Shown here one piece after another: positions 10,899 through 23,845 of a DNA stretch of 32,000 bases (the first letter of the stretch is position 1; each line of letters starts with the position of its first letter). Made by a program: the position numbers and the translations under genes. The stretch comes from Ruminococcus albus 7 = DSM 20455 (GTDB taxonomy: Bacteria; Bacillota; Clostridia; Oscillospirales; Ruminococcaceae). The notes under the pieces are model-generated. The model searched no databases. It saw nothing but the letters and a program-made list of their open reading frames with translations, and was not told where the DNA came from. Where the stretch lies: assembly GCF_000179635.2 (NCBI RefSeq), contig NC_014833.1:150001-182000 (forward strand), in the 5' to 3' direction.

Positions 10899-10920
10899 TT
10901 ACTGCTTATACCCTGAAAAA

Positions 10921-11394: not shown

Positions 11395-11421
11395 TGATTA
11401 ATCTTGCTTGGGAGTGAAATA

Positions 11422-12132
11422 ATGAAGATCGCAGTATGTGATGACGAAAAGATGTTTCGTAATGAAGTTATCATTCTGCTTAATAAATATGCAGAAGAGA
11501 ATAATATTATCCTTGATATAACCGAATTTGATGACGGCGGGAAGGTCGTGGCTGCCAAGACGGTTTTTGATATGATATTTCTCGATCATCAGATGAATGA
11601 ACTGAACGGACTGGATACTATAAAACGTATACGTGAAAAAAATATAGATACGAAAGTTGTTTTTGTAAGCAGTTATTCAGAGATAGTATTTGACAGCATG
11701 AAATACAATGCATTCAGGTTCATAGTAAAGCCTGTTACAAAGGATAAGCTTTATGAGGCTATGGATGCTGCACTTGAAATCAGCAGCAGCGAGCGCAAGC
11801 TGATAGTAAAGGATGAAGAGTATAATGAGAGCATAGTGGTGTATGAAAAGGATGTTATATACGCGCAGGCGGACAATGTATATACATACATAATAACAGC
11901 GGAAGGCTCGTTCAGGTATCCTTACAATCTTTCAACGCTTGAAGAGGAGCTGGATTCGGGGGGGTTTTTCAGGACGAACAGGTCTTATATAGTAAATCTT
12001 GAGCATATAAATTCCTACGATAAGACGGGTATCACCTTATCGAACGGACATAAAGCTGTGATATCAAGATCAAAGTACAAGGATTTCAACAATTGTTATC
12101 TCAATTATTTAAAGAGATCTTCATCAAGATGA
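11422..12132 (+). CDS. LytTR-family response regulator (AgrA/ComE type)
   Basis: Track ORF is 11404..12132. The preferred start is ATG 11422 (MKIAVCDDE...) after GGGAG. The receiver domain includes MIFLDHQM, and the C-terminal LytTR domain includes FFRTNRSYIVNLEHI. Confidence 0.9.
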   Translation: MKIAVCDDEKMFRNEVIILLNKYAEENNIILDITEFDDGGKVVAAKTVFDMIFLDHQMNELNGLDTIKRIREKNIDTKVVFVSSYSEIVFDSMKYNAFRFIVKPVTKDKLYEAMDAALEISSSERKLIVKDEEYNESIVVYEKDVIYAQADNVYTYIITAEGSFRYPYNLSTLEEELDSGGFFRTNRSYIVNLEHINSYDKTGITLSNGHKAVISRSKYKDFNNCYLNYLKRSSSR

Positions 12133-12190
12133 TAGAATGATCCGGGTTTGCTAATGGTGTAATGAAATAATGTTATGGGGAGTGTATTAA

Positions 12191-13516
12191 ATGGAAATCG
12201 TATTAAAAAATGTTAGGTTTATATTATTTATATCCGTGTATATTTTATATTTTGTGAATATACATAAAAGTGTTAAGTTGATTTCGGATGATAATAAGTT
12301 CAGAAAAATCAGCTATGCTGTCGCGGGCTTACATATTATTTTGAAAATATTATTAGAAACTGTTCCTTTTTCAAAACAAGTAGGAGATGTTATATGGCGG
12401 ATGGGAGTACCATTGCTTTGTCTGTCAGTATTCCTTTCACACAAACAGCATCTATTAAAAACTGTTTATGTAACATTACTCTATTCATCTCTTGAAGCGA
12501 GTCTGGGAACAGTGATAAATATACTAATTGATGTCATTGTTCCGATAAAATACAGGGATTATAGTGGAGTAGCATTATACTTTTTATTAAATCTGGCATA
12601 TTATTTTATATTGACAAGATATCTGACGCAAAAGGCGGAAGATTTGAGGCTGAGTTTGGAATTTATTAATAGAAAAACATATATATTCATTCTTATATAT
12701 GCAAGGATACTTTCAAAACTAATATCAGTTACCAGAGCTGGAGAAAATATGAAATTTACAAGTGTGAAGCTGTTGTTCTATGTCAAATTATATATTATAC
12801 CTATCTGTATAATTTCAATGTTTATCATAATCCTTTTGATATCAAACAGTATGTCCAAATTCTACTATAAAAGGTCAGCGGAATTGCTGGACAAGCAGCT
12901 GGATATGCAGGCTAAGTATTACGAAAAAATCGATGAGATGACTACGGATATCAGGAAATTCAGGCACGATTATAAAAATCACATGCATTGTCTGAAGTCG
13001 CTGCTGGGCAGCAAGAAAATAGATGATGCGCTGGAGTATCTGGATTCCATATCCGCTAATCCAACTATGAACAAAACATCATTCAAAAGCGGCAATACCA
13101 TAGCCGATGCGATACTAAACGATAAGGCTGCAATAGCAGCACATGAGAATTTCAGGCTGAATTTCTCGTGAGTGATCTCGGAAAAAGTATCGGCATTCGA
13201 TATATGCACCATTCTTTCAAATGCACTGGATAATTCCATAGAAGCCTGTCGAAGGCTGAAAAGTGCAGAGGATAGGTATATAGACGTAAACTGCGTGCTT
13301 AAAAATGATATGCAGATGATATGTATATCAAATCCATCGGATACTGATGATCCGGATCTTAAAACTTCAAAGGATAATAAAAATGAGCATGGCTTTGGTC
13401 TTTATAATATAAAGAAGACAGTTGATTCACTGGATGGAACAGTGAATATCTCACAGACCTCGCCTGTATTCGTCCTGGATGTAATGTTCAGGATAAAAAT
13501 GCCTGAAACGGCGTGA
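12191..13516 (+). pseudogene. AgrC/HPK10-type sensor histidine kinase interrupted by an in-frame TGA
   Basis: Track ORFs 12191..13171 and 13172..13516 are in the same frame, separated only by TGA at 13169-13171. The N-terminal part is a polytopic membrane sensor. The H-box is FRHDYKNHMHCL, the N-box SNALDNSIEA and the G-box HGFGLYNIKK. The stop falls between the H-box and the N-box. Confidence 0.8.
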
Positions 13517-13537
13517 TTTCGGAATAAATAACATAAA

Positions 13538-13569
13538 ACAGCAGTATGTAAAAAGTACTGCTGTTTTTT
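13538..13569 (+). terminator. Rho-independent terminator after the kinase gene
   Basis: Stem CAGCAGTA / TACTGCTG followed by a T-run of 6. Confidence 0.8.
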
Positions 13570-13626
13570 ATTTTCATATCAAAATTACCATTCACAAAAA
13601 AAAACGGGGGCTTTACAAGAGATTTG

Positions 13627-13655
13627 TTGTTTTAACATGGCTTATACGCTATACT
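13627..13655 (+). promoter_or_regulatory. Candidate promoter of the maturase/precursor operon
   Basis: TTGTTT (13627-13632), 17-nt spacer, TATACT (13650-13655). The -35 box is weak, which is compatible with activator dependence. Confidence 0.35.
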
Positions 13656-13688
13656 ATGAGTGTACCAAGACGAAGGGAGGTCAGAGAG

Positions 13689-13721
13689 ATGGATGAATAC
13701 TACGGCTGGAAATGGCATTGA
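13689..13721 (+). CDS. 10-codon upstream sORF MDEYYGWKWH (function unknown)
   Basis: AAGGGAGG (13673-13680) lies 8 nt before ATG 13689, and the stop TGA is at 13719-13721. The sORF sits in the leader of the rSAM operon. Confidence 0.3.
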   Translation: MDEYYGWKWH

Positions 13722-13776
13722 TGCTCAGTGAAATGAACTTGAATAAATTAATAAATAATATGTGGGGTTTTTCAAC

Positions 13777-15033
13777 ATGAGGAAATTTACAAAGAATCTG
13801 CTGTTCCTGCAGAATAAGGAGCAGGTGATAGTCGGCAACAAATGCGAATGTACTTTCCTGAAAATGAGCACAGAGTGCTACGATATACTGAACGGCTTTG
13901 TGAAGAGAGGTATAGGAAAGCATGAGTATGAAAAAATTTTTGAAGATAAAGAAGATAAGGAGTACTTCAGCGAGCTTCATGACAAGCTGGTTGAGAAAAA
14001 GATACTTGTTGATGTAAATGACAAGGAGCTCCTTACAGATTTCGATATACAGTGGGAAGTAACAAATCAGTGCAATCTGCACTGCAAGCACTGCATAGCA
14101 GATGCAGTTACTACCAAGACGCTGATAGCTGACAGAGATGAGATATATGCCATAGCCGATAAGATACTCGGCGTTAAGCCAAGGCTGATAACTGTCACTG
14201 GCGGTGAGCCTATGGTACTGCCGTTCTTCTTTGAACTCAGCGAGTACCTGAGAAAGAATACCCGCGGTGAGATGAACCTGATGACCAATGGCACTTACAT
14301 TACCGAAGAAAATGCAGCTAAGATAAAGGAACTTTATGATGCTGTATTCATAAGTGTTGACGGCTCGGATGAAAAGTCCTGCAGCGAGATAAGAGGAGCA
14401 GGGGTGTTTGGAAAGGTAATGGATGCCATCAAGTATCTGAAGGCGGCAGGAGTTAAGAATATATCCCTTTCCTTTGTACTTACAGCACAGAACAGAGAGC
14501 ATGAGAAGCCTTTCCTGAAGCTGTGCAGGGAGCTGGAAGTCAGCCCCATGGTGAGAACGTTTTCGCCCGTAGGAAGAGGCAAGGATCACAAGGACTGGTA
14601 TATCCAGGATGAATCGGTGGAAGACAATGATCCTGTTGATCCCGAGTTTGTAAAGAAGACAAAAGAGAACCAGCCTTACATCGAGTTTGGTGCCTGCGGC
14701 GGACGCTACGGTTCCTTTACGGTAAATGCAAAAGGAAATATGTTCCTGTGCGCACCCTATGAATGTTCCGAGAAACCTATCGGAAATATTCTCGAGGTTG
14801 ACGATATAAACAAGTATTTTTACGAAGAGGAATTCAGGAAAACAGAAAGCTATCTGAACTTTGAAAAGAAAATGCCTGAGAATTTCAAGAGATGTCAGGA
14901 GTGCAGTGTAAAGTACTTCTGCTGGCACTGTCCTTTCCTGTTCGAGCAGTCACTGAAAAACGAGAAGTCGTTTGATAACTACTGCAAGATCAGAAAAAAA
15001 GAGATCGGCTTTTCGCTTTGGGGTGAGATCTGA
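13777..15033 (+). CDS. Radical SAM/SPASM maturase with N-terminal RRE-like (PqqD-like) domain
   Basis: Track ORF is 13762..15033 with a GTG start; ATG 13777 (MRKFTKN...) is preferred. A pre-domain of about 95 aa precedes the CxxxCxxC motif (NQCNLHCKHC). The C-terminus is Cys-rich and SPASM-like (GACGG...LCAPYEC...CQECSVKYFCWHC). Confidence 0.9.
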   Translation: MRKFTKNLLFLQNKEQVIVGNKCECTFLKMSTECYDILNGFVKRGIGKHEYEKIFEDKEDKEYFSELHDKLVEKKILVDVNDKELLTDFDIQWEVTNQCNLHCKHCIADAVTTKTLIADRDEIYAIADKILGVKPRLITVTGGEPMVLPFFFELSEYLRKNTRGEMNLMTNGTYITEENAAKIKELYDAVFISVDGSDEKSCSEIRGAGVFGKVMDAIKYLKAAGVKNISLSFVLTAQNREHEKPFLKLCRELEVSPMVRTFSPVGRGKDHKDWYIQDESVEDNDPVDPEFVKKTKENQPYIEFGACGGRYGSFTVNAKGNMFLCAPYECSEKPIGNILEVDDINKYFYEEEFRKTESYLNFEKKMPENFKRCQECSVKYFCWHCPFLFEQSLKNEKSFDNYCKIRKKEIGFSLWGEI

Positions 15034-16037
15034 TGCACGTTGTATTTTGGACTACGAATGATTGCAACCTGAACTGCAGCTACTGCTACAACAGGATGAG
15101 CAATAATATAAAGAAAGAATATATGACCAGAGAGGTCGCAGATGCAGCGATAGATATGCTGACCAAGCTTGACTGCTGGAAAACTGCCGATGAGATCGCA
15201 GTACAGTTCCACGGCGGTGAGCCTCTCATGAATTGCGATATAATAGAGTATATCATGGAGCGTTTTGAAGCTCTGGTGCCTGCATCAAAGCTGTACTACG
15301 GAATGACTACCAACGGTACGCTCTATGATGACAGAAGAAAAAAGATAATCGATAAAATAAACGAACTATCGCTGAGCCTTGACGGCAAGGCGGAGATACA
15401 TGACCTGAACAGAAAGTTCGTAAGCGGCAAGGGTTCGTTTGATATCGTTATGGATACAGCCAGGGATATCAGCAAGAGAAAAGATGTCCGGCTGAGGATG
15501 ACTGTTACAAGAGATACTATCGGTGATCTTTGCGATACGGTCTGCTATTTCCTGGAGGAGGGTTTCAGACGGATAATACCCGTACTGGATATGTATGACT
15601 CTCACTGGAAGGACGAGGACGAGCCGATAATATTTGAGCAGTTCCGCAAGATAAAAGAATATATAGAAGAAAAAGACTATGGAGATGCCGTTATCTCGTA
15701 CGTTACCGAATCGGAATTTGTCCGCAAGGCAAAATGTACGGGCGGCGTGGAAAGTTTCCACTTCCTGCCTGACGGCAGCATCTATCCGTGTTCGTTGACA
15801 GTAGGTGACAGTTACTGGCTGCTGGGAAATGTGCTGGACACAGGGCTTGACAAAGCCAAGGTGGATGAGCTCCAGATGATAAACAACAAGGACACATCAA
15901 GCTGTACCGGCTGTGAGATGTATCACTACTGTGCAAGCTCAAGATGTAAACTTATAAATAAAAAGATAACAGGCGATTATTATACTGCCAGCAGTATAGC
16001 CTGTCTATGCAGCAGACTTGAATACGAGTTTGCTTAA
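15033..16037 (+). CDS. Second radical SAM/SPASM maturase (no RRE domain)
   Basis: The start overlaps the upstream stop (TGATG). The CxxxCxxC motif begins at residue 11 (NDCNLNCSYC). The C-terminal Cys cluster is KCTGG...YPCS...SSCTGCEMYHYCASSRC. Confidence 0.9.
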   Translation: MHVVFWTTNDCNLNCSYCYNRMSNNIKKEYMTREVADAAIDMLTKLDCWKTADEIAVQFHGGEPLMNCDIIEYIMERFEALVPASKLYYGMTTNGTLYDDRRKKIIDKINELSLSLDGKAEIHDLNRKFVSGKGSFDIVMDTARDISKRKDVRLRMTVTRDTIGDLCDTVCYFLEEGFRRIIPVLDMYDSHWKDEDEPIIFEQFRKIKEYIEEKDYGDAVISYVTESEFVRKAKCTGGVESFHFLPDGSIYPCSLTVGDSYWLLGNVLDTGLDKAKVDELQMINNKDTSSCTGCEMYHYCASSRCKLINKKITGDYYTASSIACLCSRLEYEFA

Positions 16038-16085: not shown

Positions 16086-16262
16086 ATGGAAATCAAGAAA
16101 ATCGACAATAAGGTAAAGCTCAATAACCAGAATGTAAAGGCTGAGAGAGACGAGTATGCTTGTCACCACGACTGCATCGAGTACTACTATTCCGGAAGCA
16201 CAGGCGCAAAGGGTTGCCGCAGAGGAAGCACTATTTCCGCTAAGACTACCCGCGCTTGGTAA
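16086..16262 (+). CDS. RiPP precursor A1 (58 aa)
   Basis: Not in the ORF track. AGGAGG lies 8 nt upstream. Sequence: MEIKKIDNKVKLNNQNVKAERDEYACHHDCIEYYYSGSTGAKGCRRGSTISAKTTRAW. Confidence 0.85.
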   Translation: MEIKKIDNKVKLNNQNVKAERDEYACHHDCIEYYYSGSTGAKGCRRGSTISAKTTRAW

Positions 16263-16348
16263 TCTTGGATCTTTTGGATAAAATACAAAAATCATAAGAA
16301 AACTATACGCACTAATACAATCTACATTTAATATAGGAGGATTTTACT

Positions 16349-16525
16349 ATGGAAATCAAGAAGATCAATGACAAGGTTAAGCTGAACGAAGAGAACGTAA
16401 AGGCAGAGAGAGACGAGTACGCTTGCCACCACGACTGCATCGAGTACTACTATACCGGAAGCACAGGCGCAAAGGGCTGCCGCAGAGGAAGCACTATTTC
16501 CGCTAAGACTACCCGCGCTTGGTAA
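16349..16525 (+). CDS. RiPP precursor A2 (58 aa)
   Basis: Not in the ORF track. AGGAGG RBS present. Sequence: MEIKKINDKVKLNEENVKAERDEYACHHDCIEYYYTGSTGAKGCRRGSTISAKTTRAW. Confidence 0.85.
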   Translation: MEIKKINDKVKLNEENVKAERDEYACHHDCIEYYYTGSTGAKGCRRGSTISAKTTRAW

Positions 16526-16611
16526 TCTTGGATCTTTTGGATAAAATACAAAAATCATAAGAAAACTATACGCACTAATACAATCTACATTTAATATAGG
16601 AGGATTTTACT

Positions 16612-16788
16612 ATGGAAATCAAGAAGATCAATGACAAGGTTAAGCTGAACGAAGAGAACGTAAAGGCAGAGAGAGACGAGTACGCTTGCCACCACGACTG
16701 CATCGAGTACTACTATTCCGGAAGCACAGGCGCAAAGGGCTGCTCCAGAAGAAGCACTATAACTGCTAAGACAACCCGCGCTTGGTAA
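16612..16788 (+). CDS. RiPP precursor A3 (58 aa)
   Basis: Not in the ORF track. AGGAGG RBS present. Sequence: MEIKKINDKVKLNEENVKAERDEYACHHDCIEYYYSGSTGAKGCSRRSTITAKTTRAW. Confidence 0.85.
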   Translation: MEIKKINDKVKLNEENVKAERDEYACHHDCIEYYYSGSTGAKGCSRRSTITAKTTRAW

Positions 16789-16919
16789 TCTTAGATCTTT
16801 GAATGCAATAATCATAAGAATACTATTCTAGCAATTCATAATAATACTATACGCACCAATACAATTTACTACTAATAACAAACAAAGTAATAATTTATAA
16901 AAAACAGGAGGATTTTATC

Positions 16920-17096
16920 ATGGAAATCAAAAAGATCAATGACAAGATTAAGCTGAACGAAGAGAATGTAAAGGCAGAGAGAGACGAGTACGCTTGCCAC
17001 CACGACTGCATCGAGTACTACTATACCGGTAGCACAGGTGCAAAGGGCTGCCGCAGAGGAAGCACTATTTCCGCTAAGACAACCCGTGCTTGGTAA
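16920..17096 (+). CDS. RiPP precursor A4 (58 aa)
   Basis: Not in the ORF track. AGGAGG RBS present. Sequence: MEIKKINDKIKLNEENVKAERDEYACHHDCIEYYYTGSTGAKGCRRGSTISAKTTRAW. The core is identical to A2. Confidence 0.85.
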   Translation: MEIKKINDKIKLNEENVKAERDEYACHHDCIEYYYTGSTGAKGCRRGSTISAKTTRAW

Positions 17097-17307: not shown

Positions 17308-17478
17308 ATGAAGGTACAGAAAATAACAGACAAAATCAAGCTCAGTGAGGAAAATGTAAAGGCTGAAGGCGGCGGCTGCCTTAAAGACTGTGCAGAGATA
17401 CAGTATACAGGCAAAAACTCAGCTAAGGGCTGCAGAAGGACCACAGTATATACAGCAAAGTACACTAATATGTGGTAA
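17308..17478 (+). CDS. RiPP precursor B1 (56 aa, divergent core)
   Basis: Not in the ORF track. AAGGAG lies 8 nt upstream. Sequence: MKVQKITDKIKLSEENVKAEGGGCLKDCAEIQYTGKNSAKGCRRTTVYTAKYTNMW. Confidence 0.8.
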   Translation: MKVQKITDKIKLSEENVKAEGGGCLKDCAEIQYTGKNSAKGCRRTTVYTAKYTNMW

Positions 17479-17929: not shown

Positions 17930-18919
17930 ATGAGAAAAGTTAAAGTTGCGATCATTGACAGCGGGATCAACTACAACATAGTTAATGACGATGTCAGAAA
18001 CTGCATAAAGACCGGATATTTAGTTCATGATGATGAAGCCAATACTGTTCAGGAGGTATCACCTTCCGAATTGTGTGATTTCAACGGGCATGGTACGGTA
18101 TGCGCTTCAATAGTAAACAGGATAGCGCCGGAAACGGAGATAATCCCTGTTTGTATATTGGGTAAGAACGGCAGATGCACTCCGGGCAAACTGGTAGCTG
18201 CACTGGAACTGGCCAAACGGCTCGATGTCCAGATCATCAATATGAGTCTCAGCTCAAATGATCTATTTATACGGCATAAACTGAAAAAGCTGACAAAGGA
18301 ACTTGAAGCGCAGGGAAAGATCTGTGTAGCTTCAAAGTCCAATGACAGACACATCAGTTTTCCGGCAGATTTTAAAAACGTTATAGGTGTTGTAGGCAGG
18401 ATCGACGTTTTTAATGACGGTTTTGAATACGACAGTCAGAAGAAGATACAGGTAACAGCCAGCGGAGCTACAGAGCTTATGGAATTCCATATGCCCGGTG
18501 CGAACTTCTTCAGAGGCAACAGCAGGGCGGCTGCGATATTCTCAGGCGTTCTTGCGGATGCTTACGCAAAAGGAAAGTTCAGCACAAAGGCAGAGGCGGA
18601 AGAGTATATGAGGTCTGAGTCCTGGGTGAGCGAAAAGTTTTACAGGTCTCCGGAGGATGATGAGAGCGATGAGAAGATCGTGAACAGGATCCTCACAAGA
18701 GTAAGTAAAATGATATCCGATGAGAGGATACGTGTTAAGCTCGCAGATGATCTTGAGCTGGTGTATACCAATTCTACTATCTATGATTATTACAAGATAA
18801 TCTATATGCTCGAAAATGAGTTTTCGTGCAGGATATTCGGCAAAGTCCCTGTATACAGGGTATATTTTCAGAAGATAAATTATCTCGGCAAACTGGTAAA
18901 GGAAGCACTCAATGAATAA
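17930..18919 (+). CDS. S8 (subtilisin-like) serine peptidase, no signal peptide; probable leader peptidase
   Basis: Catalytic blocks VAIIDSGIN (Asp), NGHGTVCAS (His), INMSLS (oxyanion Asn) and GNSRAAAIFSG (Ser). The N-terminus starts directly with the Asp block. A C-terminal extension of about 100 aa belongs to no family I recognise. Confidence 0.85.
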   Translation: MRKVKVAIIDSGINYNIVNDDVRNCIKTGYLVHDDEANTVQEVSPSELCDFNGHGTVCASIVNRIAPETEIIPVCILGKNGRCTPGKLVAALELAKRLDVQIINMSLSSNDLFIRHKLKKLTKELEAQGKICVASKSNDRHISFPADFKNVIGVVGRIDVFNDGFEYDSQKKIQVTASGATELMEFHMPGANFFRGNSRAAAIFSGVLADAYAKGKFSTKAEAEEYMRSESWVSEKFYRSPEDDESDEKIVNRILTRVSKMISDERIRVKLADDLELVYTNSTIYDYYKIIYMLENEFSCRIFGKVPVYRVYFQKINYLGKLVKEALNE

Positions 18920-20531
18920 TGAAATAAGGAAACTGCTCAGGATATGGAAACTTGACAGAATGAAGAAAGGTGTTTTCTTTACCCTGATGCTGATATCGGT
19001 GTTCTTGTCGATAGCCGTGCCAATGGTATTCGTTGACTTTGTAGATGTGGTCACGAAAGCGGCATCGATGAGTTCGCTGGTAAGATTGATAACAATATAT
19101 TTAGTACTTAACATTTCACAGATGTTTGTGGAGTTCGCGTTTGATTATTACTCATCCGTAAAGGAATTCGAGTTCGCACAGCATCTGAAATTTACAGCGC
19201 TGGACAGACTTTTCATGAAGGACGGAAGGTTCTTCGCCAATGAAAAGACGGGCGACCTTATGACGGTGGTAAATGATGATGCAGCAAAGCTGGCATCATT
19301 CGTATACAAAGCATACAAGGTGATCGTTTCACTGGTCCAGGCGATCGGCATAATGGGTGTCATGTTCTACTATGATGTGAAACTCACGCTGCTGCTGATC
19401 GTTATGATACCTATAACTCTGGCGGCTCAACAGAAGTTCGGAGATAAACTCAGGTATCTGGCGCTTGAGAACAGAAGAGATTACGGAGAGCAGAATGCTC
19501 TCACAGAGGAGTTCATATCAAATGCACCTGCGATGATAACATACGGTTTCCGCAGGAGCTTTCTCAACAAGTATGAACTTGCATCAGATGTGTTGAAAAG
19601 AAGCTTTAAAAAGCTCACACTGACAAATGGTTTTTCAAATCAGGCTATAGATATGATATCTACCATAAGCCTGATAGCGATAACTGCATTCGGCGGTTAT
19701 CAGGTATTTCAGAAGCAGATCTCAATGGGTGTAATGATAATATTCCTGCAGTACTGCACAAGGTTTATCGCACCGTTTGAGAACCTGGTATTCATGAAAG
19801 TAAGCTTTAATATGGTCATTCCTTCTCTTGACCACGTAGATGAAGTGCTGGGCGGAGATACTTGCGCAGACACTTCGGCAGGCAAGCAGATAGATGAGAT
19901 CGACAATATAAAGCTTGAAAATCTTACATTCGGGTACACCCGCGGAAAAAACATTCTCAACGGGCTGGATCTGGATTTTGAGAAGAACAAAAAATATTTG
20001 ATTTGCGGAAAAAGCGGTGCAGGCAAAACTACCATATTCAATCTGATCCTCGGATTGTGGCGGGCAACGTCGGGCAATATCTATATAAACGACGATGAGA
20101 TCGGCAGCATAGATCTTGAATCATTCAGGGACAGGATCTCACTGGTCTCGCAGAAAACGTTCTTCCTGCATGATACGATATATAATAATCTGACCAATGG
20201 AAGGGATATACCGGAAGAAAAGGTATGGGAAGCTCTGCGGTGTGTTGAACTTGACGATTTTGTCAGGGGCATGGAAAATGGTTTGGATACCATACTGGGT
20301 GATGATGGTATGACAATGTCCGGAGGACAGAGGCAGAGACTGGCAATAGCACGTTCAATGCTGAAACGATCGGATGTGGTAATATTCGATGAGCCGACTT
20401 CGGCACTTGATAAGAATACAGAGAAGATAATTGCGCGTTCCATAATGGGTATAAAGGATAAGATAATAATCATCGTATCCCACAGCAATTGTTTTTCGGA
20501 TCAGGTCGATCAGATATACAAGATCGGATAA
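18912..20531 (+). CDS. ABC exporter, fused permease-ATPase (no C39 peptidase domain)
   Basis: 539 aa. The N-terminal half is a 6-TM domain. Walker A is GKSGAGKTT, the signature MSGGQRQR and Walker B VVIFDEPTSALD. The start overlaps the peptidase gene by 8 nt. Confidence 0.9.
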   Translation: MNNEIRKLLRIWKLDRMKKGVFFTLMLISVFLSIAVPMVFVDFVDVVTKAASMSSLVRLITIYLVLNISQMFVEFAFDYYSSVKEFEFAQHLKFTALDRLFMKDGRFFANEKTGDLMTVVNDDAAKLASFVYKAYKVIVSLVQAIGIMGVMFYYDVKLTLLLIVMIPITLAAQQKFGDKLRYLALENRRDYGEQNALTEEFISNAPAMITYGFRRSFLNKYELASDVLKRSFKKLTLTNGFSNQAIDMISTISLIAITAFGGYQVFQKQISMGVMIIFLQYCTRFIAPFENLVFMKVSFNMVIPSLDHVDEVLGGDTCADTSAGKQIDEIDNIKLENLTFGYTRGKNILNGLDLDFEKNKKYLICGKSGAGKTTIFNLILGLWRATSGNIYINDDEIGSIDLESFRDRISLVSQKTFFLHDTIYNNLTNGRDIPEEKVWEALRCVELDDFVRGMENGLDTILGDDGMTMSGGQRQRLAIARSMLKRSDVVIFDEPTSALDKNTEKIIARSIMGIKDKIIIIVSHSNCFSDQVDQIYKIG

Positions 20532-20567: not shown

Positions 20568-20596
20568 TTGACTTTATCAAAAATATGTGATAAGAT
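20568..20596 (+). promoter_or_regulatory. SigA-type promoter of the ABC ATPase/FtsX pair
   Basis: TTGACT (20568-20573), 17-nt spacer, TGaTAAGAT (20588-20596, extended -10). Confidence 0.45.
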
Positions 20597-20650
20597 ATAT
20601 AATGTTTGCCATGACATGATGAAAATATATGATAAGGAACGGTGATAGTA

Positions 20651-21310
20651 ATGGTAATTCAAACTCACGATCTGTGTAAGTATTACGGTGATGAAAGCAA
20701 TATGGTGAAGGCTCTTGACAAGGTGAACCTGAGCGTTGACAAGGGTGAACTGATAGGCATAATCGGCAAGTCGGGCAGCGGTAAGTCAACGCTGCTGAAT
20801 ATGCTGGGTGCGCTCGATCATCCCACGGGAGGAAGCATCATTATCGGCGGAGAGGATATCTCCAAGATGAACGATGAGCAGCTGACAAAGATGCGTCGTT
20901 CAAAGATCGGCTTCATTTTCCAGAACTACAATCTTATACCCGTACTGAATGTATACGAGAACATAGTTCTGCCTATACAGCTTGACGGAAAGAAGCCCAA
21001 CAATAAGTATATCGATACTATACTTGATGCACTGGAGATCTCACACAAGAAAAATTCTCTGCCTTCCTCCATGTCCGGCGGACAGCAGCAGAGAGTTGCC
21101 ATAGCAAGAGCTCTGGCAAACAAGCCCGAGATAGTTCTGGCTGATGAGCCTACGGGAAATCTCGATGAAGCTATGGGCGCAGAGGTAGTTGATATGCTCA
21201 AATTCATGAATAAGGAGTTTGACCAGACTATCATTGTAGTAACACACGATCAGGAAGTTGCATCACAGATGAACAGAGTGATTAGAGTAGTTGATGGGAG
21301 AGTGCAGTAA
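20651..21310 (+). CDS. ABC transporter ATP-binding protein (MacB/LolD/BceA-like)
   Basis: Track ORF is 20642..21310 with a GTG start; ATG 20651 is preferred. Walker A is GKSGSGKST, the signature MSGGQQQRVAIAR, Walker B IVLADEPTGNLD and the H-loop VVTHD. Confidence 0.9.
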   Translation: MVIQTHDLCKYYGDESNMVKALDKVNLSVDKGELIGIIGKSGSGKSTLLNMLGALDHPTGGSIIIGGEDISKMNDEQLTKMRRSKIGFIFQNYNLIPVLNVYENIVLPIQLDGKKPNNKYIDTILDALEISHKKNSLPSSMSGGQQQRVAIARALANKPEIVLADEPTGNLDEAMGAEVVDMLKFMNKEFDQTIIVVTHDQEVASQMNRVIRVVDGRVQ

Positions 21311-23773
21311 ATGATCAGAAAACTCGCGTTCAGGTCACTTATGGCAGAAAAGTTCAGATGTGTCTGTACTGTTATCGCCATGATACTGACTGCTCTGCTG
21401 TTTTCAACGCTGTTTACTACGGCGGCAGGGCTAAACAATGCCAATACCTATTATGAATTCAAAAAGCTGGGAACCACTGCCCATGTTATAGTAAAGGACT
21501 GGGACAAGGGCTATGGCAAAGAATTTGAAGCTATCAGGGGTCACGGACTTGTAAAAAAAGCAGGTTACCGCAGATTTTTGGGATATGCAGTAAACAGCGG
21601 TATCAAATACAATGTTGAAGTCAGCTACATGGGCGCAGATGAGGCAGAGCTTGACTACTACACACCCACAAGCGGAAAACTCCCCGTTGAAGCAAACGAG
21701 ATAGCTGTCGATACGACTACTCTTGCTGCACTTGGCGTGGAGAAGAAGGTAGGCACACCCGTCAGCATCGACCTTGATGTAAGCGGCAAGACCGTTACCG
21801 AGGAATTCGTGCTTTCGGGCTGGTTCGAGATAAACAAGGCTTATTCTGTAAAGATAGGTCAGATAATAACCTCCGAAAAATACAGCGATATCTGGGACAG
21901 CAAGTTTGAAACCGACACCGTGAACGGAACGAGCGATGTATCAATTCTGCTGAGTGATGGCTATGATATCGAAGGTGAAACAGAGCAGATTTTCAATGAT
22001 GTTGGTCTTGCATATTCTCAGGATATCATATCTGTGAATCCCGGTTATAATGTCAGCAGTGAAACGATGTCAAGCGAAACAATGGTTACCCTGATAGTAG
22101 GTATACTCGTTATCGTACTTATCGGTTATCTTATCATCAACAACATTTTCTATATCTCGGCAAGAAAAGATGCAAAGCAGTTCGGCAGACTGAAGACTAT
22201 CGGTATGTCAAACAAACATCTGGCAGCCTTTGTAAGGACTCAGGCATTTATAATGCTTGCTGTCGCAGTTCCCCTTGGTATAGTAGGCGGATATTTTATG
22301 GGCAAACTTATACTGCCTGCGATACTGCGCCAGACTGCCTATGATTCTGTCGCTGATGATACAGTCATATCAGGCGGAGTTATCGCCCTGATACTTGCAG
22401 CAGCAGCGCTGTTCGTTGTGATAACTACACTGGTAAGTATAAACGGACCTATAAGAATGATAAAGAAGCTTTCGCCTATCGAATCGACAAGGATAGAGCT
22501 CAAGGGCTATAAGAGCACAAGAAAATCAAGCGACGGCAGCAAGACCCACAAATTTGCAAAATATAACATCCTGCGCAACAAGAAGAGCCTTGCGATGCTG
22601 CTCGTAAGCATATCACTTCCCGTACTGCTGGTAATAGTTTCATACGATGCACTCAACAGCTTTGATATGGATAAGTACCTTTCGACTATACTCGCATCTG
22701 ATTACACTGTAGCATCATCGGATTATTACAAGAATGACTATATCGACAATGAAAACAATGTAAAGACACTTGATGCATCGGTAGTTGAAGAGATAAAAAA
22801 CTGCGGTTTTGTAGAAGAAGGTTCGATAGTATACGGTGATATGGCTAATGAATATGCAAGTGTAAAGGAGATTCAGATCCCGGAGGGCGATGTGTATACA
22901 CTTGACCTTTATGGTTCAGAAGAATTTACAATTGATAAGTCGCTTATCATCGAGGACAATATCGACATGGCAAAATTCAAGGACGGTACAGGTATCGTTG
23001 AGGGCTGCTGGCTGACATCCGAGGGAGAGATCTACCCCGGTACAAGTCAATTCAACCAGGGCGACACTGTTACTATAACAGGTGCAGACGGAAAAGAGCA
23101 TACCTATACAGTCTTAGGTCACATGAATGTTGCTCTTGGTGCCAAAAAGACAGGTATATCAAAAGGCGGCATCACCTGCGAGCTTTATATGAATACTGCG
23201 CAGTATGAGCAGGTAACAGGCAATCAGAACATAATGTCCTATGAATTCAACGTAAAGAACGGCATGGAAAAGGAAGCTGAAAAATACATCAAGGGCATGA
23301 CAGAGGCTGATAGCTCAATAAATTATCAGTCTAAATATTCTCTTGCCGCTGATTTTGCATCAATGAAGCTTCTGGTAAAACTGATATGCACTCTGCTGTG
23401 CGTGGTGCTTACATTTATCGCTGTAATGAATCTTATCAACGTATTTGTATCAAGTATAATGGTAAGAGAAAAGGAGATTGCGACACTGAAGAGCATCGGC
23501 ATGACGAGAGGTCAGCTGAGAAAGATGCTGTTCTGGGAAATATTCTACTACAACGGCACAGCGTTTATAATAGCAGCTGTACTTTCGCTGGTACTGTCGC
23601 CAACGGTTTTCAAAAGCGTTTTCAACGAATTCCCGTTCCTGACCTTCCGTATGAACTGGATGTCATACCCTGCGATAATAGTAGTTATAATGTTTGTAGG
23701 TATAATGACTGTTATATGTGTTGAGAACAGGATATCTAAAATGAACATCCCCGAAGAATTAAAGACTGCGTAA
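21311..23773 (+). CDS. FtsX-family ABC permease with two FtsX modules (BceB/MacB-like); candidate self-immunity
   Basis: 820 aa. The start immediately follows the ATPase stop. Two TM clusters each carry the FtsX signature (...ARKDAKQFGRLKTIGMSNKHL... and ...VREKEIATLKSIGMTRGQLRKML...), separated by large soluble loops. Confidence 0.85.
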   Translation: MIRKLAFRSLMAEKFRCVCTVIAMILTALLFSTLFTTAAGLNNANTYYEFKKLGTTAHVIVKDWDKGYGKEFEAIRGHGLVKKAGYRRFLGYAVNSGIKYNVEVSYMGADEAELDYYTPTSGKLPVEANEIAVDTTTLAALGVEKKVGTPVSIDLDVSGKTVTEEFVLSGWFEINKAYSVKIGQIITSEKYSDIWDSKFETDTVNGTSDVSILLSDGYDIEGETEQIFNDVGLAYSQDIISVNPGYNVSSETMSSETMVTLIVGILVIVLIGYLIINNIFYISARKDAKQFGRLKTIGMSNKHLAAFVRTQAFIMLAVAVPLGIVGGYFMGKLILPAILRQTAYDSVADDTVISGGVIALILAAAALFVVITTLVSINGPIRMIKKLSPIESTRIELKGYKSTRKSSDGSKTHKFAKYNILRNKKSLAMLLVSISLPVLLVIVSYDALNSFDMDKYLSTILASDYTVASSDYYKNDYIDNENNVKTLDASVVEEIKNCGFVEEGSIVYGDMANEYASVKEIQIPEGDVYTLDLYGSEEFTIDKSLIIEDNIDMAKFKDGTGIVEGCWLTSEGEIYPGTSQFNQGDTVTITGADGKEHTYTVLGHMNVALGAKKTGISKGGITCELYMNTAQYEQVTGNQNIMSYEFNVKNGMEKEAEKYIKGMTEADSSINYQSKYSLAADFASMKLLVKLICTLLCVVLTFIAVMNLINVFVSSIMVREKEIATLKSIGMTRGQLRKMLFWEIFYYNGTAFIIAAVLSLVLSPTVFKSVFNEFPFLTFRMNWMSYPAIIVVIMFVGIMTVICVENRISKMNIPEELKTA

Positions 23774-23805
23774 TGAATAACTTCGCTGCGTGATATAATG
23801 ATCGT

Positions 23806-23845
23806 AACATCGGCTTTGCTGTAAAGGCAGAGCCGATGTTGTTTT
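23806..23845 (+). terminator. Rho-independent terminator ending the RiPP cluster
   Basis: 10-bp perfect stem AACATCGGCT / AGCCGATGTT followed by GTTTT. Confidence 0.8.

What the first reader, a model, noticed from the sequence alone, without database searches (positions are those of the whole stretch)
11404..23845. Complete-looking radical-SAM RiPP cluster with quorum-type regulation, not matching any family I recognise
All genes here are co-directional, in this order:
- LytTR response regulator, then an AgrC-type kinase, then a terminator.
- A promoter, then rSAM/SPASM maturase 1 (with RRE) and rSAM/SPASM maturase 2.
- Seven short leader-bearing peptide genes.
- A cytoplasmic S8 peptidase and an ABC exporter.
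- A separate promoter, then a BceAB/MacB-like ATPase plus FtsX permease, then a terminator.

The architecture recalls the ruminococcin C locus of Ruminococcus gnavus (several precursors, two sactisynthases, peptidase, ABC transporters, two-component system). The peptides look nothing like RumC as I remember it. The conserved core motif D-C-x-E...Y.G...A(K/R).GCRR......AK, with 2-3 Cys and many Tyr, fits no sactipeptide or ranthipeptide I know. The GGGC..DC start of B1 is only vaguely like SCIFF ranthipeptides.
Basis: partly seen in the sequence, partly recalled or inferred. Interest (0 to 1): 0.95.

Follow-up and report, generated by a model that had tools for sequence, protein, structure and literature searches.

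The report
Uncharacterised two-radical-SAM peptide antibiotic cluster
This stretch of the Ruminococcus albus 7 chromosome holds a real, conserved but never characterised gene cluster for making cross-linked ribosomal peptides; it is related to known "ranthipeptide" systems, and its sensor kinase is knocked out by a stop codon in this strain.

Summary
The genes are present at the stated coordinates, in the stated order. The window is Ruminococcus albus 7 (exact protein matches, ADU20721-ADU20730).

The cluster belongs to a rare but conserved family. More than 20 loci share this module: an RRE-bearing radical-SAM/SPASM enzyme, a short PapB/CteB-like radical-SAM/SPASM enzyme, precursor(s), a cytoplasmic S8 protease, an ABC exporter, and usually an ATPase plus FtsX permease. 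The loci come from Ruminococcus, Lachnospiraceae, Clostridium, a Peptostreptococcaceae-type contig and Paenibacillus.

The precursors match no Pfam or NCBIfam model. They share a leader (IKKIxDKIxL..VKAE) and a core motif, C-x-x-D-C ... aromatic ... G-C.

Both maturases score far below every curated family cut-off. The second one is closest to the ranthipeptide maturases PapB and CteB. I therefore read the product as a thioether peptide of a new sub-family, not a ruminococcin C relative.

- The kinase has an in-frame TGA where 13 relatives have Gly.
- No consensus promoter was found before maturase 1.
- A conserved 10-codon Trp-rich ORF was missed. This ORF and the kinase sensor half are the only hypervariable islands between near-identical clusters, so it is a candidate pheromone.

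A 2014 genome-mining table probably lists this cluster (Rumal_0164). I found no characterisation. Interest is moderate to high, not 0.95.

The parts
11422..12132 (+). Response regulator, receiver + LytTR DNA-binding domain (236 aa)
   Evidence: Pfam Response_reg 61 bits and LytTR 76 bits. It is 86-99% identical to the regulators in Ruminococcus loci L007, L008, L016 and L023.
12191..13516 (+). AgrC/HPK10-type sensor histidine kinase, interrupted by an in-frame TGA at 13169-13171 between the H-box (SPOB_a) and the GHKL ATPase domain
   Evidence: Pfam SPOB_a hits the first ORF and HATPase_c_5 (88 bits) hits the second. Both ORFs are in the same frame and read RLNFS*VISEK. All 13 related kinases covering the position read RLNFSGVIS and are intact. 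At least five hydrophobic segments lie in residues 1-218.
13535..13567 (+). Intrinsic-terminator-like hairpin after the kinase
   Evidence: 13-bp stem followed by a T-run. It is conserved in L001 and L007-L010.
13576..13675 (+). Conserved intergenic block (candidate regulated promoter/operator) ending in a strong RBS, GAAGGGAGG
   Evidence: 100% nucleotide identity to L023. It is near-identical in L001, L007-L010 and L024, and recognisable in L016. The consensus scan found no sigma-70 match.
13689..13721 (+). 10-codon Trp-rich ORF (MDEYYGWKWH), candidate peptide pheromone
   Evidence: Translation. An ORF of 9-13 codons sits at the same place behind the same RBS in all 15 other loci that carry this regulator cassette. 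These give 9 distinct peptides with 22 Trp in 97 residues. This segment (51% identity) and the kinase sensor half (54-75%) are the only diverged segments between the window and L023, which are otherwise mostly 98-100% identical.
13777..15033 (+). Radical SAM/SPASM maturase 1 with an N-terminal RRE-like domain (418 aa)
   Evidence: Pfam Radical_SAM, Fer4_12 and SPASM. CxxxCxxC at C99/C103/C106 and seven invariant SPASM Cys residues. No NCBIfam family is reached; the best hits are MftC at 94 bits (cut-off 265) and StsB at 94 bits (cut-off 625). The AF2 model has pLDDT 87 with a beta3-alpha3 N-terminal domain. Foldseek's top hits are CteB, anSME, SkfB and SuiB. Only about 31 homologous clusters score E<1e-39 among 5.8 billion proteins.
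15033..16037 (+). Radical SAM/SPASM maturase 2, PapB/CteB-like, no RRE (334 aa)
   Evidence: NCBIfam PapB 177 bits (cut-off 340), SCIFF maturase 142 bits (cut-off 425), QhpD 111 bits. By sequence it matches PDB CteB 5WGG residues 103-439. The AF2 model has pLDDT 91, and Foldseek against CteB gives TM 0.82-0.83 at rmsd 3.2-3.6 A. Its start overlaps the stop of maturase 1.
16086..17096 (+). Four near-identical precursor genes A1-A4 (16086-16262, 16349-16525, 16612-16788, 16920-17096), 58 aa each
   Evidence: 88-91% identical to one another. A 263-bp tandem repeat with 2.8 copies at 94% identity. Exact matches to R. albus 7 proteins ADU20723-26.
17308..17478 (+). Precursor B1 (56 aa; core GGGCLKDCAEIQYTGKNSAKGCRR...)
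   Evidence: Same leader and the C-x-x-D-C...G-C core.
17507..17686 (+). Precursor B2 (59 aa; first Cys replaced by Phe)
   Evidence: Conserved in L007, L008 and L023-L029.
17730..17897 (+). Seventh leader-bearing peptide, C type (55 aa; core GIFSDFNYDYVGFDPCNK... with a basic tail), lacking the C-x-x-D-C motif
   Evidence: Only the leader aligns. It is conserved as the last peptide gene in the Ruminococcus loci with more than two precursor genes.
17930..18919 (+). Cytoplasmic S8 (subtilisin-like) leader peptidase with a C-terminal ACP-like domain
   Evidence: Pfam Peptidase_S8. The best NCBIfam hit is QhpE at 99.7 bits (cut-off 165). The triad D10/H54/S198 is invariant. No TM segment or signal peptide. 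A profile of the C-terminal ~90 aa hits carrier proteins (4H2S at 3.6e-5; ACPs at 1e-4), and 5 of 11 members hit NF005480.
18912..20531 (+). ABC exporter (TMD + NBD, no C39 peptidase domain)
   Evidence: Pfam ABC_membrane and ABC_tran. It aligns to bacteriocin/NHLP exporters only from their TMD onwards.
20568..20633 (+). Three overlapping sigma-70-like promoter matches before the ATPase gene
   Evidence: Matches of 9-10 out of 12 positions. Consensus matches only.
20642..21310 (+). MacB/LolD/FtsE-type ABC ATPase (putative immunity transporter subunit)
   Evidence: NCBIfam LolD 232 bits, DarD 210 bits, lactococcin-972-type ABC 207 bits, all below their cut-offs. 98.6-99.5% identical across the four nearest R. 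albus-type relatives (L007, L008, L023, L024).
21311..23773 (+). 820-aa permease with two FtsX domains (putative immunity transporter subunit)
   Evidence: Pfam FtsX in 2 stretches. About 8-9 hydrophobic segments with two large loops. Only 79% identical between strains whose ATPase is 99% identical.
23804..23842 (+). Intrinsic-terminator-like hairpin closing the cluster
   Evidence: 17-bp stem followed by a T-run. Homology to other R. albus strains ends at 23773.

Best explanation
This is a biosynthetic gene cluster for a so far uncharacterised family of radical-SAM-modified ribosomal peptides. The family is defined by precursors with a conserved ~20-residue leader (M-x-IKKI-x-DKI-x-L...VKAE) and a core C-x-x-D-C-x-(E/D)...(Y/W)-x-G...G-C...(S/T)-A-K-x-T...(W/F).

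Proposed mechanism:
1. The leader is bound by the RRE domain of maturase 1 (inferred from the fold).
2. Maturase 2 is a PapB/CteB-type enzyme that lacks its own RRE and is translationally coupled to maturase 1. It makes one or more non-alpha thioethers from Cys to the downstream Asp/Glu: C-x-x-D, and C-x-E where present. This is inferred from its closest relatives and from PapB's substrate rule.
3. Maturase 1 either cooperates in the same reaction as a complex or installs a second, unknown cross-link involving the remaining conserved Cys or aromatic residues (speculative).
4. The cytoplasmic S8 protease, whose ACP-like domain may serve as a docking module, removes the leader near VKAE (inferred, by analogy with QhpE).
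5. The ABC exporter secretes the products.
6. The separately promoted ATPase/FtsX transporter protects the producer, which implies an envelope-active antimicrobial (inferred).
7. Expression is meant to be autoinduced through the LytTR regulator and the AgrC-type kinase. The kinase probably senses the short Trp-rich peptide encoded as the first cistron of the biosynthetic operon (inferred from hypervariability that it shares only with the kinase sensor half).
8. In this strain (R. albus 7) the kinase carries a nonsense codon, so induction is probably lost or leaky.
For: - Gene content and order.
- The same module (rSAM1-like, rSAM2-like, precursor(s), S8, ABC, usually ATPase+FtsX) is conserved in Ruminococcus (L001, L007-L010, L023-L033), Lachnospiraceae (L003, L004, L011, L012, L020), Clostridium (L017, L018), a Peptostreptococcaceae-type contig (L006) and Paenibacillus (L005, L021, L022).
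- In a 40-sequence precursor alignment, D-C is present in all 40 sequences, the first Cys in 38 and G-C in nearly all.
- Maturase 2 is closest to PapB, the SCIFF maturase and QhpD by HMM, and to CteB by sequence and by predicted fold.
- PapB makes Cys-to-Asp/Glu thioethers. Its acceptor must lie C-terminal to the Cys, and it tolerates different spacings (PMC12373016).
- The maturase 1 model shows an RRE-like domain plus SPASM and resembles CteB and SuiB over its full length.
- There is precedent for two rSAM enzymes acting as one complex: TrnC/TrnD (PMC12093266).
- The best hit of the S8 protease is QhpE. QhpD (thioethers), QhpE (leader removal) and QhpF (ABC export) act in that order in the cytoplasm (PMC7876137).
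- Kinase nonsense codon.
- Small ORF and sensor hypervariability.
Against: - No chemistry was or could be tested here.
- Both maturases score far below every curated family cut-off, so transferring reaction type from PapB or CteB is an extrapolation at 24-36% identity.
- The B2-type peptides lack the first Cys but keep the Asp. The acidic residue after the second Cys is missing in several distant members. The simple C-to-D/E scheme therefore cannot explain all the conservation.
- No function can be assigned to maturase 1. Its best HMM hits (MftC, StsB, AhbD, NirJ) disagree with one another.
- No consensus promoter was found upstream of the small ORF.
- A Mantel test of peptide similarity against sensor identity was not significant (r=0.19, 1500 of 5040 permutations reached it).
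- The loci that share a peptide are near-clonal, so the one-to-one pairing rests on 9 haplotypes.
- The immunity and antimicrobial roles rest on analogy only.
Confidence: 0.7

Rival explanations
1. It is a sactipeptide cluster (sulfur-to-alpha-carbon thioethers), as its probable listing in a 2014 genome-mining table implies. Maturase 1 would be the sactisynthase and maturase 2 an accessory partner.
For: - A R. albus 7 rSAM gene (Rumal_0164), probably in this cluster, is listed among putative sactipeptide clusters (PMC4289311).
- The second-best NCBIfam hit of maturase 1 is the validated sactisynthase StsB (94 bits; PMC10288494).
- Its structural neighbours include SkfB and CteB-type enzymes.
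- Two-rSAM sactipeptide systems exist, for example TrnC/TrnD.
Against: - StsB scores 94 bits against a cut-off of 625, and RumMC 72 against 720.
- Maturase 2 ranks all non-alpha thioether families (PapB, ScfB, QhpD) above any sactisynthase.
- The invariant feature of the core is a Cys followed closely by Asp (C-x-x-D). It is not the N-terminal Cys cluster with distant C-terminal acceptors that gives the hairpin of typical sactipeptides (the typical sactipeptide pattern is from my own knowledge).
Confidence: 0.15
2. The modified peptides are signalling or morphogenetic molecules rather than antibiotics, as has been proposed for SCIFF-type ranthipeptides. The FtsX transporter would then serve export or sensing, not immunity.
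For: - Reviews and surveys note that ranthipeptides lack well-characterised antimicrobial activity (PMC13289728).
- SCIFF-derived ranthipeptides have been linked to quorum sensing in solventogenic clostridia (my own knowledge; the paper was not read here).
- The cluster is wired to a quorum-type two-component system.
Against: - Several diversified precursor copies, strain-to-strain copy-number variation and a dedicated MacB/BceAB-like transporter whose permease diverges faster than its ATPase (79% against 99%) fit a bacteriocin-plus-immunity arms race better.
- The cluster is island-like and strain-variable, not core.
- R. albus is known to antagonise R. flavefaciens with bacteriocins (PMC5359413).
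Confidence: 0.2
3. Maturase 1 performs a different chemistry on the conserved aromatic or Lys residues, such as a C-C or C-O cross-link (cyclophane, Lys-Trp) or an MftC-like reaction at the C-terminus. The product would then be a hybrid carrying both thioether and non-thioether cross-links.
For: - The best NCBIfam hit of maturase 1 is MftC, and WgkB also appears in the list.
- The core has a conserved Y/W five to six residues after the second Cys, a near-invariant A-K-x-T, and an aromatic or hydrophobic C-terminal residue.
- Maturase 1 forms its own rare family (about 31 clusters) that always co-occurs with the PapB-like enzyme. That pattern suggests a distinct second function.
Against: - All of these HMM hits are far below their cut-offs and cover mainly the generic rSAM core.
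- The conserved Lys and the C-terminal aromatic residue are each lost in some members.
- Nothing distinguishes this reading from a TrnC/TrnD-like cooperative thioether synthase.
Confidence: 0.3
4. The small Trp-rich ORF is not a pheromone. It is a cis-acting leader ORF (translational coupling, or ribosome stalling on Trp/Pro-rich sequence), or simply a non-functional ORF in a recombination hotspot.
For: - It sits about 55 nt upstream of the maturase 1 start codon, behind a strong RBS.
- Trp-rich leader peptides are classic attenuators, such as trpL and TnaC (my own knowledge).
- No exporter or processing enzyme can be tied to it.
- The Mantel test was not significant.
Against: - The ORF, its RBS and its length (9-13 codons) are kept in 9 sequence-unrelated variants, all 20-30% Trp.
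- Between clusters that are otherwise mostly 98-100% identical, the only other replaced segment is the membrane sensor half of the kinase. That is the pattern of agr-type specificity groups.
- No terminator or anti-terminator structure follows it.
- The same cassette travels with a distantly related cluster in L016.
Confidence: 0.35

Closest known systems
Freyrasin system PapA/PapB of Paenibacillus polymyxa (ranthipeptide; NCBIfam NF047865)
   Same: - Maturase 2 is the same length and has the same domain layout as the PapB model. PapB is its best HMM hit (177 bits; 170-213 bits for all rSAM2-like homologues).
- The core has Cys followed by a downstream Asp/Glu, which is PapB's substrate rule.
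   Different: - The score is below the curated cut-off of 340.
- The precursor is not a CxxxD repeat. It is a single C-x-x-D-C...G-C core with conserved aromatic, Gly and Lys positions.
- A second, RRE-bearing rSAM enzyme is always present.
Thermocellin/SCIFF systems (CteA/CteB, ScfA/ScfB; TIGR03973/TIGR03974)
   Same: - CteB is the best solved-structure match to maturase 2, with TM 0.82 and all SPASM cysteines aligned.
- CteB is also the top fold match for maturase 1, including its RRE domain.
   Different: - Only 24-26% identity, and the SCIFF maturase model scores 142 bits against a cut-off of 425.
- The precursors do not hit the SCIFF model at all.
- Here the RRE and the CteB-like core are split over two proteins.
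QhpC/QhpD/QhpE/QhpF maturation of the quinohemoprotein amine dehydrogenase gamma subunit
   Same: The logic matches: an rSAM enzyme forms Cys-to-Asp/Glu thioethers on a leader-bearing peptide, a cytoplasmic subtilisin-like protease removes the leader, and an ABC exporter follows (PMC7876137). QhpE is the best NCBIfam hit of the S8 protease, and QhpD is among the hits of maturase 2.
   Different: - Scores are below the cut-offs (99.7 against 165; 111 against 453).
- There are no dehydrogenase subunits and no QhpG.
- The products are small secreted peptides, not an enzyme subunit.
- The S8 protease carries an extra ACP-like domain.
Thuricin CD TrnC/TrnD (two radical SAM enzymes acting as a complex)
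   Same: Two adjacent rSAM/SPASM genes sit next to multiple precursors. There is precedent that the pair works as one complex held together through RRE domains (PMC12093266).
   Different: Thuricin CD is a sactipeptide with two dissimilar precursors, and both of its enzymes carry RRE-type domains. Here only maturase 1 does, and the two enzymes belong to different rSAM sub-families.
Ruminococcin C locus of Ruminococcus (Mediterraneibacter) gnavus
   Different: - There is no sequence relationship between the precursors.
- The RumMC model scores 72 bits against a cut-off of 720.
- The regulators are of a different type.
agr and three-component bacteriocin regulatory systems (AgrBDCA; ComCDE, PlnABCD-type); double-Trp ComS/XIP pheromones
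   Same: - An HPK10-type kinase with a polytopic sensor, plus a LytTR regulator.
- The sensor half is hypervariable and is paired with a hypervariable short peptide gene, as in agr specificity groups.
- The acidic and Trp-Trp flavour of the peptides recalls XIP (my own knowledge).
   Different: - The window has no AgrB or AgrD, although the relative L006 has both.
- The candidate signal is a 9-13-codon ORF with no double-glycine leader, and it is not adjacent to the kinase gene.
- XIP is sensed by cytoplasmic ComR, not by a membrane kinase.

Membership tests
PapB-family ranthipeptide maturase (NF047865) | Whole-protein score at or above the curated cut-off (340 bits) | tested here: not met
   177.4 bits for maturase 2. 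Homologues across the family score 170-213 bits.
Ranthipeptide systems in the broad sense (PapB/ScfB/CteB/QhpD clade) | Maturase with a CteB-like rSAM + SPASM fold and a full set of auxiliary-cluster cysteines | tested here: met
   Foldseek against CteB gives TM 0.82-0.83 at rmsd 3.2-3.6 A. C235, C253, C291, C294, C300, C305 and C324 are invariant in 25 homologues.
Ranthipeptide systems in the broad sense | Precursor core with Cys followed by a downstream acceptor residue (Asp/Glu for PapB/QhpD) | tested here: met
   C-x-x-D is present in 38 of 40 family members. C-x-(E/D) is present in most close members.
Ranthipeptide systems in the broad sense | Thioether to a non-alpha carbon demonstrated chemically | not testable with these tools
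   Needs MS/MS or NMR on the modified peptide.
SCIFF (TIGR03973 precursor / TIGR03974 maturase) | Precursor matches the SCIFF model and the maturase reaches 425 bits | tested here: not met
   No precursor hit even at E<=10. The maturase scores 141.7 bits.
Sactipeptides of the ruminococcin C type (RumMC, NF035951) | Maturase reaches 720 bits and the precursors are related to RumC | tested here: not met
   72 bits, covering only the N-terminal rSAM core. The precursors have no family hits.
Sactipeptides in general | Sulfur-to-alpha-carbon linkage | not testable with these tools
   StsB-family score is 94 bits against a cut-off of 625 for maturase 1. This is only a weak lead.
RRE-dependent RiPP maturase | PqqD-like recognition element (three strands + three helices) fused to or accompanying the enzyme | tested here: met
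   In the maturase 1 model, residues 1-79 form strands E8-12, E16-21 and E26-31 and helices H32-44, H48-54 and H58-73, with pLDDT above 90. It aligns full-length to the RRE-bearing CteB and SuiB. There is no Pfam PqqD hit at E<=0.01, so this is met by predicted fold only.
QHNDH maturation module (QhpD/QhpE/QhpF) | QhpE and QhpD equivalog scores reached, with dehydrogenase subunit genes present | tested here: not met
   QhpE scores 99.7 against a cut-off of 165, and QhpD 110.9 against 453. There are no qhpA/B-like genes in the window.
agr quorum-sensing system | AgrB peptidase and AgrD propeptide next to AgrC/AgrA | tested here: not met
   No ORF in 11190-23773 has an AgrB domain. The AgrC model scores 26.9 bits against a cut-off of 500, and AgrA 34 against 400. 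AgrB is present in the distant relative L006.
HPK10 kinase + LytTR regulator peptide-sensing two-component system | Polytopic sensor, H-box, HATPase_c_5 domain and a LytTR regulator, all intact | tested here: not met
   All the domains are present, but the kinase ORF is cut by a TGA at 13169-13171. The kinase is intact in the 13 relatives that cover the position.
BceAB/MacB-type peptide-resistance ABC transporter | MacB/LolD-type ATPase with an FtsX-domain permease that has a large extracytoplasmic loop | tested here: inconclusive
   The ATPase scores 202-232 bits on the LolD and MacB models, below their cut-offs. The permease has two FtsX stretches and two long loops. No BceB-specific model was available, and no function was tested.
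CLI_3235/CcpM Cys-rich peptide system (TIGR04068 with ACP-related TIGR04069 and an S8 protease) | CcpM maturase and the separate ACP-related protein | tested here: not met
   CcpM scores 122 bits against a cut-off of 500. The ACP-like domain is fused to the S8 protease, and only one of 11 homologues touches TIGR04069 (E=0.084).

The most novel reading that the evidence does not exclude
The cluster defines a new RiPP class. An RRE-bearing radical SAM enzyme of unknown chemistry and an RRE-less PapB-like thioether synthase would act together on C-x-x-D-C...G-C precursors to give a cross-link pattern not yet described. Production would be controlled by a new kind of pherotype system: a leaderless 9-13-residue Trp-rich peptide, encoded as the first cistron of the biosynthetic operon, is the strain-specific signal for an AgrC-like kinase that works without AgrB/AgrD.
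Probability: 0.3. Interest if true: 0.8.

Novelty: new variant of a known kind. Interest (0 to 1): 0.6.

Why it matters
R. albus 7 is the culturable type strain of a key rumen cellulose degrader. Its competition with R. flavefaciens is attributed to bacteriocins, yet only a large protein (albusin B) has been described. Here is a compact, experimentally tractable RiPP cluster with several useful properties:

- It represents a family spread over at least five Firmicute lineages.
- It should escape the rule-based ranthipeptide and sactipeptide detection rules listed, because its precursors hit no model (inference; antiSMASH was not run here).
- It pairs a PapB-like enzyme, a type already exploited for peptide macrocyclisation, with a second maturase of unknown chemistry.
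- It offers a natural set of 9 matched pairs of kinase sensor and short peptide for testing a possible new peptide-signalling specificity system.

The nonsense codon in the kinase also warns that the type strain may be a non-producer. Strains SY3, KH2T6 or AR67 are better starting points.

Tried and rejected
- **Precursor family searches.** Pfam and NCBIfam scans of all seven precursors at E<=10 gave only noise hits. NCBIfam also gave nothing for two Paenibacillus precursors.
- **Literature motif searches.** Full-text searches for 12 core and leader sequence strings found no papers. The papers by Hudson et al. 2019 and Precord et al. 2019 (PMC6622460, PMC7362900) are not held, so I could not check the gene content of the original pap cluster.
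- **SacP23 of P. polymyxa.** Examined and rejected as a relative. It is a CLI_3235/CcpM system.
- **Genome scan.** It was repeated with 8 sequences.
- **RNA searches.** Rfam and tRNA scans of the window found nothing, so the conserved intergenic block is not a known riboswitch.
- **LytTR operator.** A search for a second copy of the conserved upstream element, as a possible LytTR operator elsewhere in the window, found only the one site. I could not define convincing direct repeats by eye and make no claim about them.
- **Mantel test.** Graded peptide similarity against sensor identity gave r=0.19, not significant. I therefore claim only a one-to-one pairing of haplotypes and co-localised hypervariability, not quantitative co-variation.
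- **Seventh (C-type) peptide as the kinase signal.** Considered and rejected. Its core is nearly invariant among strains whose sensors are only 44-74% identical.
- **Selenocysteine or recoding at the kinase TGA.** Rejected. The homologues have Gly there, and TGA ends the kinase gene and maturase 1 in this window.
- **Flanking ORFs.** ORFs at 24207-31395 have no Pfam or NCBIfam hits, and the one at 10454-10936 has no NCBIfam hit. I do not count them as part of the cluster, because homology with other strains ends at 11190 and 23773.

Full report
**Observation**

The ORF map and domain scans confirm a co-directional gene set on the + strand:
- LytTR response regulator, 11422-12132.
- AgrC/HPK10-type kinase, 12191-13516.
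- Terminator-like hairpin, 13535-13567.
- Radical SAM/SPASM enzyme 1, 13777-15033.
- Radical SAM/SPASM enzyme 2, 15033-16037. Its start overlaps the stop of enzyme 1 (TGATG).
- Seven peptide genes of 55-59 codons between 16086 and 17897.
- S8 peptidase, 17930-18919.
- ABC exporter with no peptidase domain, 18912-20531.
- Sigma-70-like sites, 20568-20633.
- MacB/LolD-type ATPase, 20642-21310.
- 820-residue double-FtsX permease, 21311-23773.
- Strong terminator-like hairpin, 23804-23842.

Four of the peptide genes form a 263-bp tandem array.

Exact-sequence look-ups identify the source as Ruminococcus albus 7 (ATCC 27210). The proteins are ADU20721 to ADU20730, annotated only as radical SAM, hypothetical or S8 proteins.

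**Corrections to the observation**

- The kinase is not intact. An in-frame TGA at 13169-13171 separates the H-box region from the GHKL ATPase domain. Thirteen kinases from related loci cover this position (12 full-length, one truncated at a contig end), and all read Gly there and are uninterrupted. One of them is a metagenomic relative whose kinase cytoplasmic half is 98% identical and whose biosynthetic genes are nearly identical.
- The consensus scan found no sigma-70-type promoter in front of enzyme 1. What is there is a 100-bp block (13576-13675) that is identical in the nearest relative and highly conserved in all Ruminococcus relatives. It ends in a strong ribosome-binding site.
- The seventh peptide shares only the leader with the other six.

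**What the parts are: enzyme 2**

Enzyme 2 is a short SPASM enzyme.
- Its best curated-family hits are PapB (177 bits, cut-off 340), the SCIFF maturase (142 bits, cut-off 425), CXXX-repeat and CcpM maturases, and QhpD (111 bits). Sactisynthase models score much lower; RumMC scores 72 bits against a cut-off of 720.
- By sequence it aligns to residues 103-439 of CteB (5WGG). That is the catalytic core without CteB's N-terminal recognition domain.
- A confident model (pLDDT 91) superposes on CteB with TM 0.82-0.83.

**What the parts are: enzyme 1**

- It reaches no family. Its best hits (MftC, StsB, AhbD, NirJ, all around 90 bits) are mutually inconsistent and lie far below their cut-offs.
- Only about 31 homologous clusters score E<1e-39 among 5.8 billion proteins, after which scores drop abruptly.
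- Its model (pLDDT 87) has an N-terminal three-strand, three-helix domain of the RRE type. It aligns over its full length to the RRE-bearing maturases CteB and SuiB.

**What the parts are: protease and transporters**

- The S8 protease has an invariant catalytic triad and no signal peptide or membrane segment. QhpE is its best curated hit.
- Its last ~90 residues form an acyl-carrier-protein-like domain (profile hits to carrier proteins). The phosphopantetheine-attachment serine is not conserved in it.
- The exporter lacks a C39 peptidase domain, which is consistent with leader removal by the S8 enzyme.

**The family**

The precursors hit nothing in Pfam or NCBIfam.
- A word-index search found 7 clusters.
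- A profile search over 1.84 billion representative proteins gave 14 hits at E<=0.001, of which 11 are precursor-sized relatives.

Genomic context look-ups and a genome-collection scan show the same module in several lineages: enzyme-1-like, enzyme-2-like, precursor(s), S8 and ABC, usually with the ATPase and FtsX permease.
- Several R. albus strains and Ruminococcus MAGs.
- Lachnotalea glycerini, Butyrivibrio sp. MC2013 and Lachnospiraceae MAGs.
- Clostridium.
- An [Eubacterium] tenue-type contig. This one has three rSAM genes and a complete agrBD pair.
- Three Paenibacillus genomes.

A 40-sequence alignment gives the family signature:
- Leader: M-x-IKKI-x-DKI-x-L...V-(K/Q)-(A/G)-(E/Q).
- Core: C-x-x-D-C, then usually an acidic residue two positions on, an aromatic residue, a Gly, a G-C pair, (S/T)-A-K-x-T, and an aromatic or hydrophobic C-terminus.

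Asp-Cys is present in all 40 sequences and the first Cys in 38. Every enzyme-2 homologue I scored has PapB as its best hit but stays below the cut-off (170-213 bits). The family is therefore a sister group of the PapB family, not a member.

**Mechanism: shown or strongly supported**

- Two catalytically competent rSAM/SPASM enzymes, one with an RRE-like domain and one without, are translationally coupled.
- The peptides carry a shared leader.
- The cluster has a cytoplasmic protease, an exporter and a second transporter.

**Mechanism: inferred**

- PapB forms thioethers from Cys to a carboxylate-bearing residue that must lie C-terminal to the Cys, and it tolerates different spacings (PMC12373016). 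QhpD does the same on QhpC. QhpE then removes the leader in the cytoplasm, and the ABC transporter QhpF exports the product (PMC7876137).
- By analogy, enzyme 2 most likely links Cys26 to Asp29, and Cys30 to Glu32 where that Glu is present.
- Enzyme 1 supplies leader recognition. It then either cooperates in one complex, as TrnC/TrnD do for thuricin CD (PMC12093266), or adds a second cross-link that uses the remaining conserved Cys or aromatic residue.
- The S8 enzyme cuts near VKAE, and the exporter secretes the product.
- The ATPase/FtsX pair probably gives self-protection. It has its own promoter-like sites, and its permease is only 79% identical between strains whose ATPase is 99% identical. 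If so, the product is an envelope-active antimicrobial.

**Mechanism: weak points**

- B2-type peptides lack the first Cys but keep the Asp.
- The acidic residue after the second Cys is absent in several distant members.
- Nothing constrains the chemistry of enzyme 1.

**Regulation**

The regulator pair is of the peptide-sensing HPK10/LytTR type, but the window holds no AgrB or AgrD.

A sliding comparison between the window and its nearest relative (L023) shows mostly 98-100% nucleotide identity from 10.4 to 16.1 kb. There are two exceptions:
- The membrane sensor half of the kinase, 12177-12875, at 54-75% identity.
- The small-ORF segment, 13676-13759, at 51% identity.

Across all loci carrying this regulator cassette:
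- The small ORF is always present behind the same RBS, at 9-13 codons.
- It occurs in 9 distinct versions with 22 Trp in 97 residues.
- Each version goes with its own sensor type. Different-peptide pairs are 44-74% identical in the sensor half and 88-98% identical in the cytoplasmic half. Same-peptide pairs are 99-100% identical in the sensor half.
- The same cassette is also attached to a distantly related (30% identity) two-rSAM cluster in L016.

This is the pattern of agr-type specificity groups. It makes the small ORF the best candidate for the cognate signal, placed so that induction would be self-reinforcing.

Caveats:
- The same-peptide loci are near-clonal.
- A Mantel test on graded similarities was not significant.
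- No export or processing route is evident.
- A cis-acting leader-ORF role is not excluded.

In R. albus 7 the nonsense codon should uncouple the phospho-accepting histidine from the ATPase domain. The type strain may therefore be a poor producer or a non-producer.

**Comparison with known systems, and novelty**

- It is not a ruminococcin C relative, not SCIFF, and not a PapB-family member by the curated thresholds.
- It works most like the PapB/CteB ranthipeptide systems combined with the QhpD/E/F processing logic.
- It adds an obligatory second rSAM enzyme and an S8-ACP-like fusion.
- Homology with other R. albus strains is confined to 11190-23773, and the flanks differ. IS66 fragments lie nearby. 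The cluster therefore behaves as a strain-variable island.
- The only prior mention I found is a table entry (Rumal_0164, 'putative sactipeptide', no similar characterised cluster) in a 2014 genome-mining survey (PMC4289311). I infer that this entry refers to the present cluster, but I could not verify the locus tag.
- A 2026 survey of Hungate1000 bacteriocins uses antiSMASH rules keyed on the SCIFF precursor model for ranthipeptides and on subtilosin/thuricin models for sactipeptides. This family should not trigger those rules (inference; antiSMASH was not run here).

I rate it a new variant of a known kind. It is a real, uncharacterised RiPP sub-family with a tractable type strain and an unusual candidate signalling module. 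It is not a categorically new system.

Noticed in passing
window 13169-13171: An in-frame TGA truncates the AgrC-type kinase between the H-box and the ATPase domain. The 13 related kinases that cover this position have Gly (GGx) there and are intact. The type strain R. albus 7 therefore probably cannot induce the cluster normally.
   Followed up: yes
window 13689-13721 (and the same position in L001, L007-L010, L016, L023-L031): A 9-13-codon Trp-rich ORF sits behind a conserved strong RBS, as the first cistron before maturase 1. It occurs in 9 unrelated versions. This ORF and the kinase sensor half (12177-12875) are the only diverged islands between otherwise near-identical clusters. It is a candidate strain-specific pheromone.
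   Followed up: partly
window 18650-18916 (C-terminal ~90 residues of the S8 peptidase): An acyl-carrier-protein-like domain is fused to the leader peptidase, and the fusion is conserved across the family. The usual phosphopantetheine-attachment serine is not conserved, so it is probably a docking domain. It recalls the separate 'ACP-related' protein (TIGR04069) of CLI_3235/CcpM systems.
   Followed up: partly
window 17730-17897: The seventh peptide has the family leader but an unrelated core (GIFSDFNYDYVGFD..., basic tail, no conserved Cys). It is conserved as the last peptide gene in the Ruminococcus loci with more than two precursor genes and is absent from the Lachnospiraceae loci. Its function is unknown, and it is too invariant to be the specificity signal.
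   Followed up: partly
window 16071-16800; L007, L008, L023-L029: The A-type precursor genes lie in a 263-bp tandem repeat. Between strains the copy number is 2-4 for A-type genes and 5-7 for all precursors. The Lachnospiraceae relatives have a single precursor.
   Followed up: yes
L016 7557-12524 (Ruminococcus sp. RUI259 MAG): The same regulator-kinase-promoter-small-ORF cassette (74-86% protein identity) drives a distantly related two-rSAM cluster (30% identity) with a different precursor (…GQGCWSDC…). The regulatory cassette therefore appears to be modular and exchangeable.
   Followed up: partly
window 21311-23773 compared with L007 and L008: The FtsX permease is only about 79% identical between R. 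albus strains. The adjacent ATPase is about 99% identical and the biosynthetic enzymes 93-95%. This may reflect co-evolution of immunity with the peptide variants.
   Followed up: no
window 1-11190 and 23773-32000: Homology to other R. albus strains stops at the cluster borders, so the cluster is island-like. Upstream lie IS66 transposase fragments (4661-5895, - strand), two DUF285/BspA-type LRR proteins (1799-4135 and 7031-8302) and a GNAT acetyltransferase (9852-10382). Downstream lie ORFs of 271, 1383 and 503 aa (24207-31395) with no Pfam or NCBIfam hit.
   Followed up: partly
L006 492-14166 ([Eubacterium] tenue-type contig): This distant family member has three rSAM genes (two of them enzyme-1-like). 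It also has a complete agr set (LytTR regulator, kinase, AgrB, 48-aa AgrD-like peptide) directly upstream. This shows that the family is linked to bona fide agr quorum sensing elsewhere.
   Followed up: no
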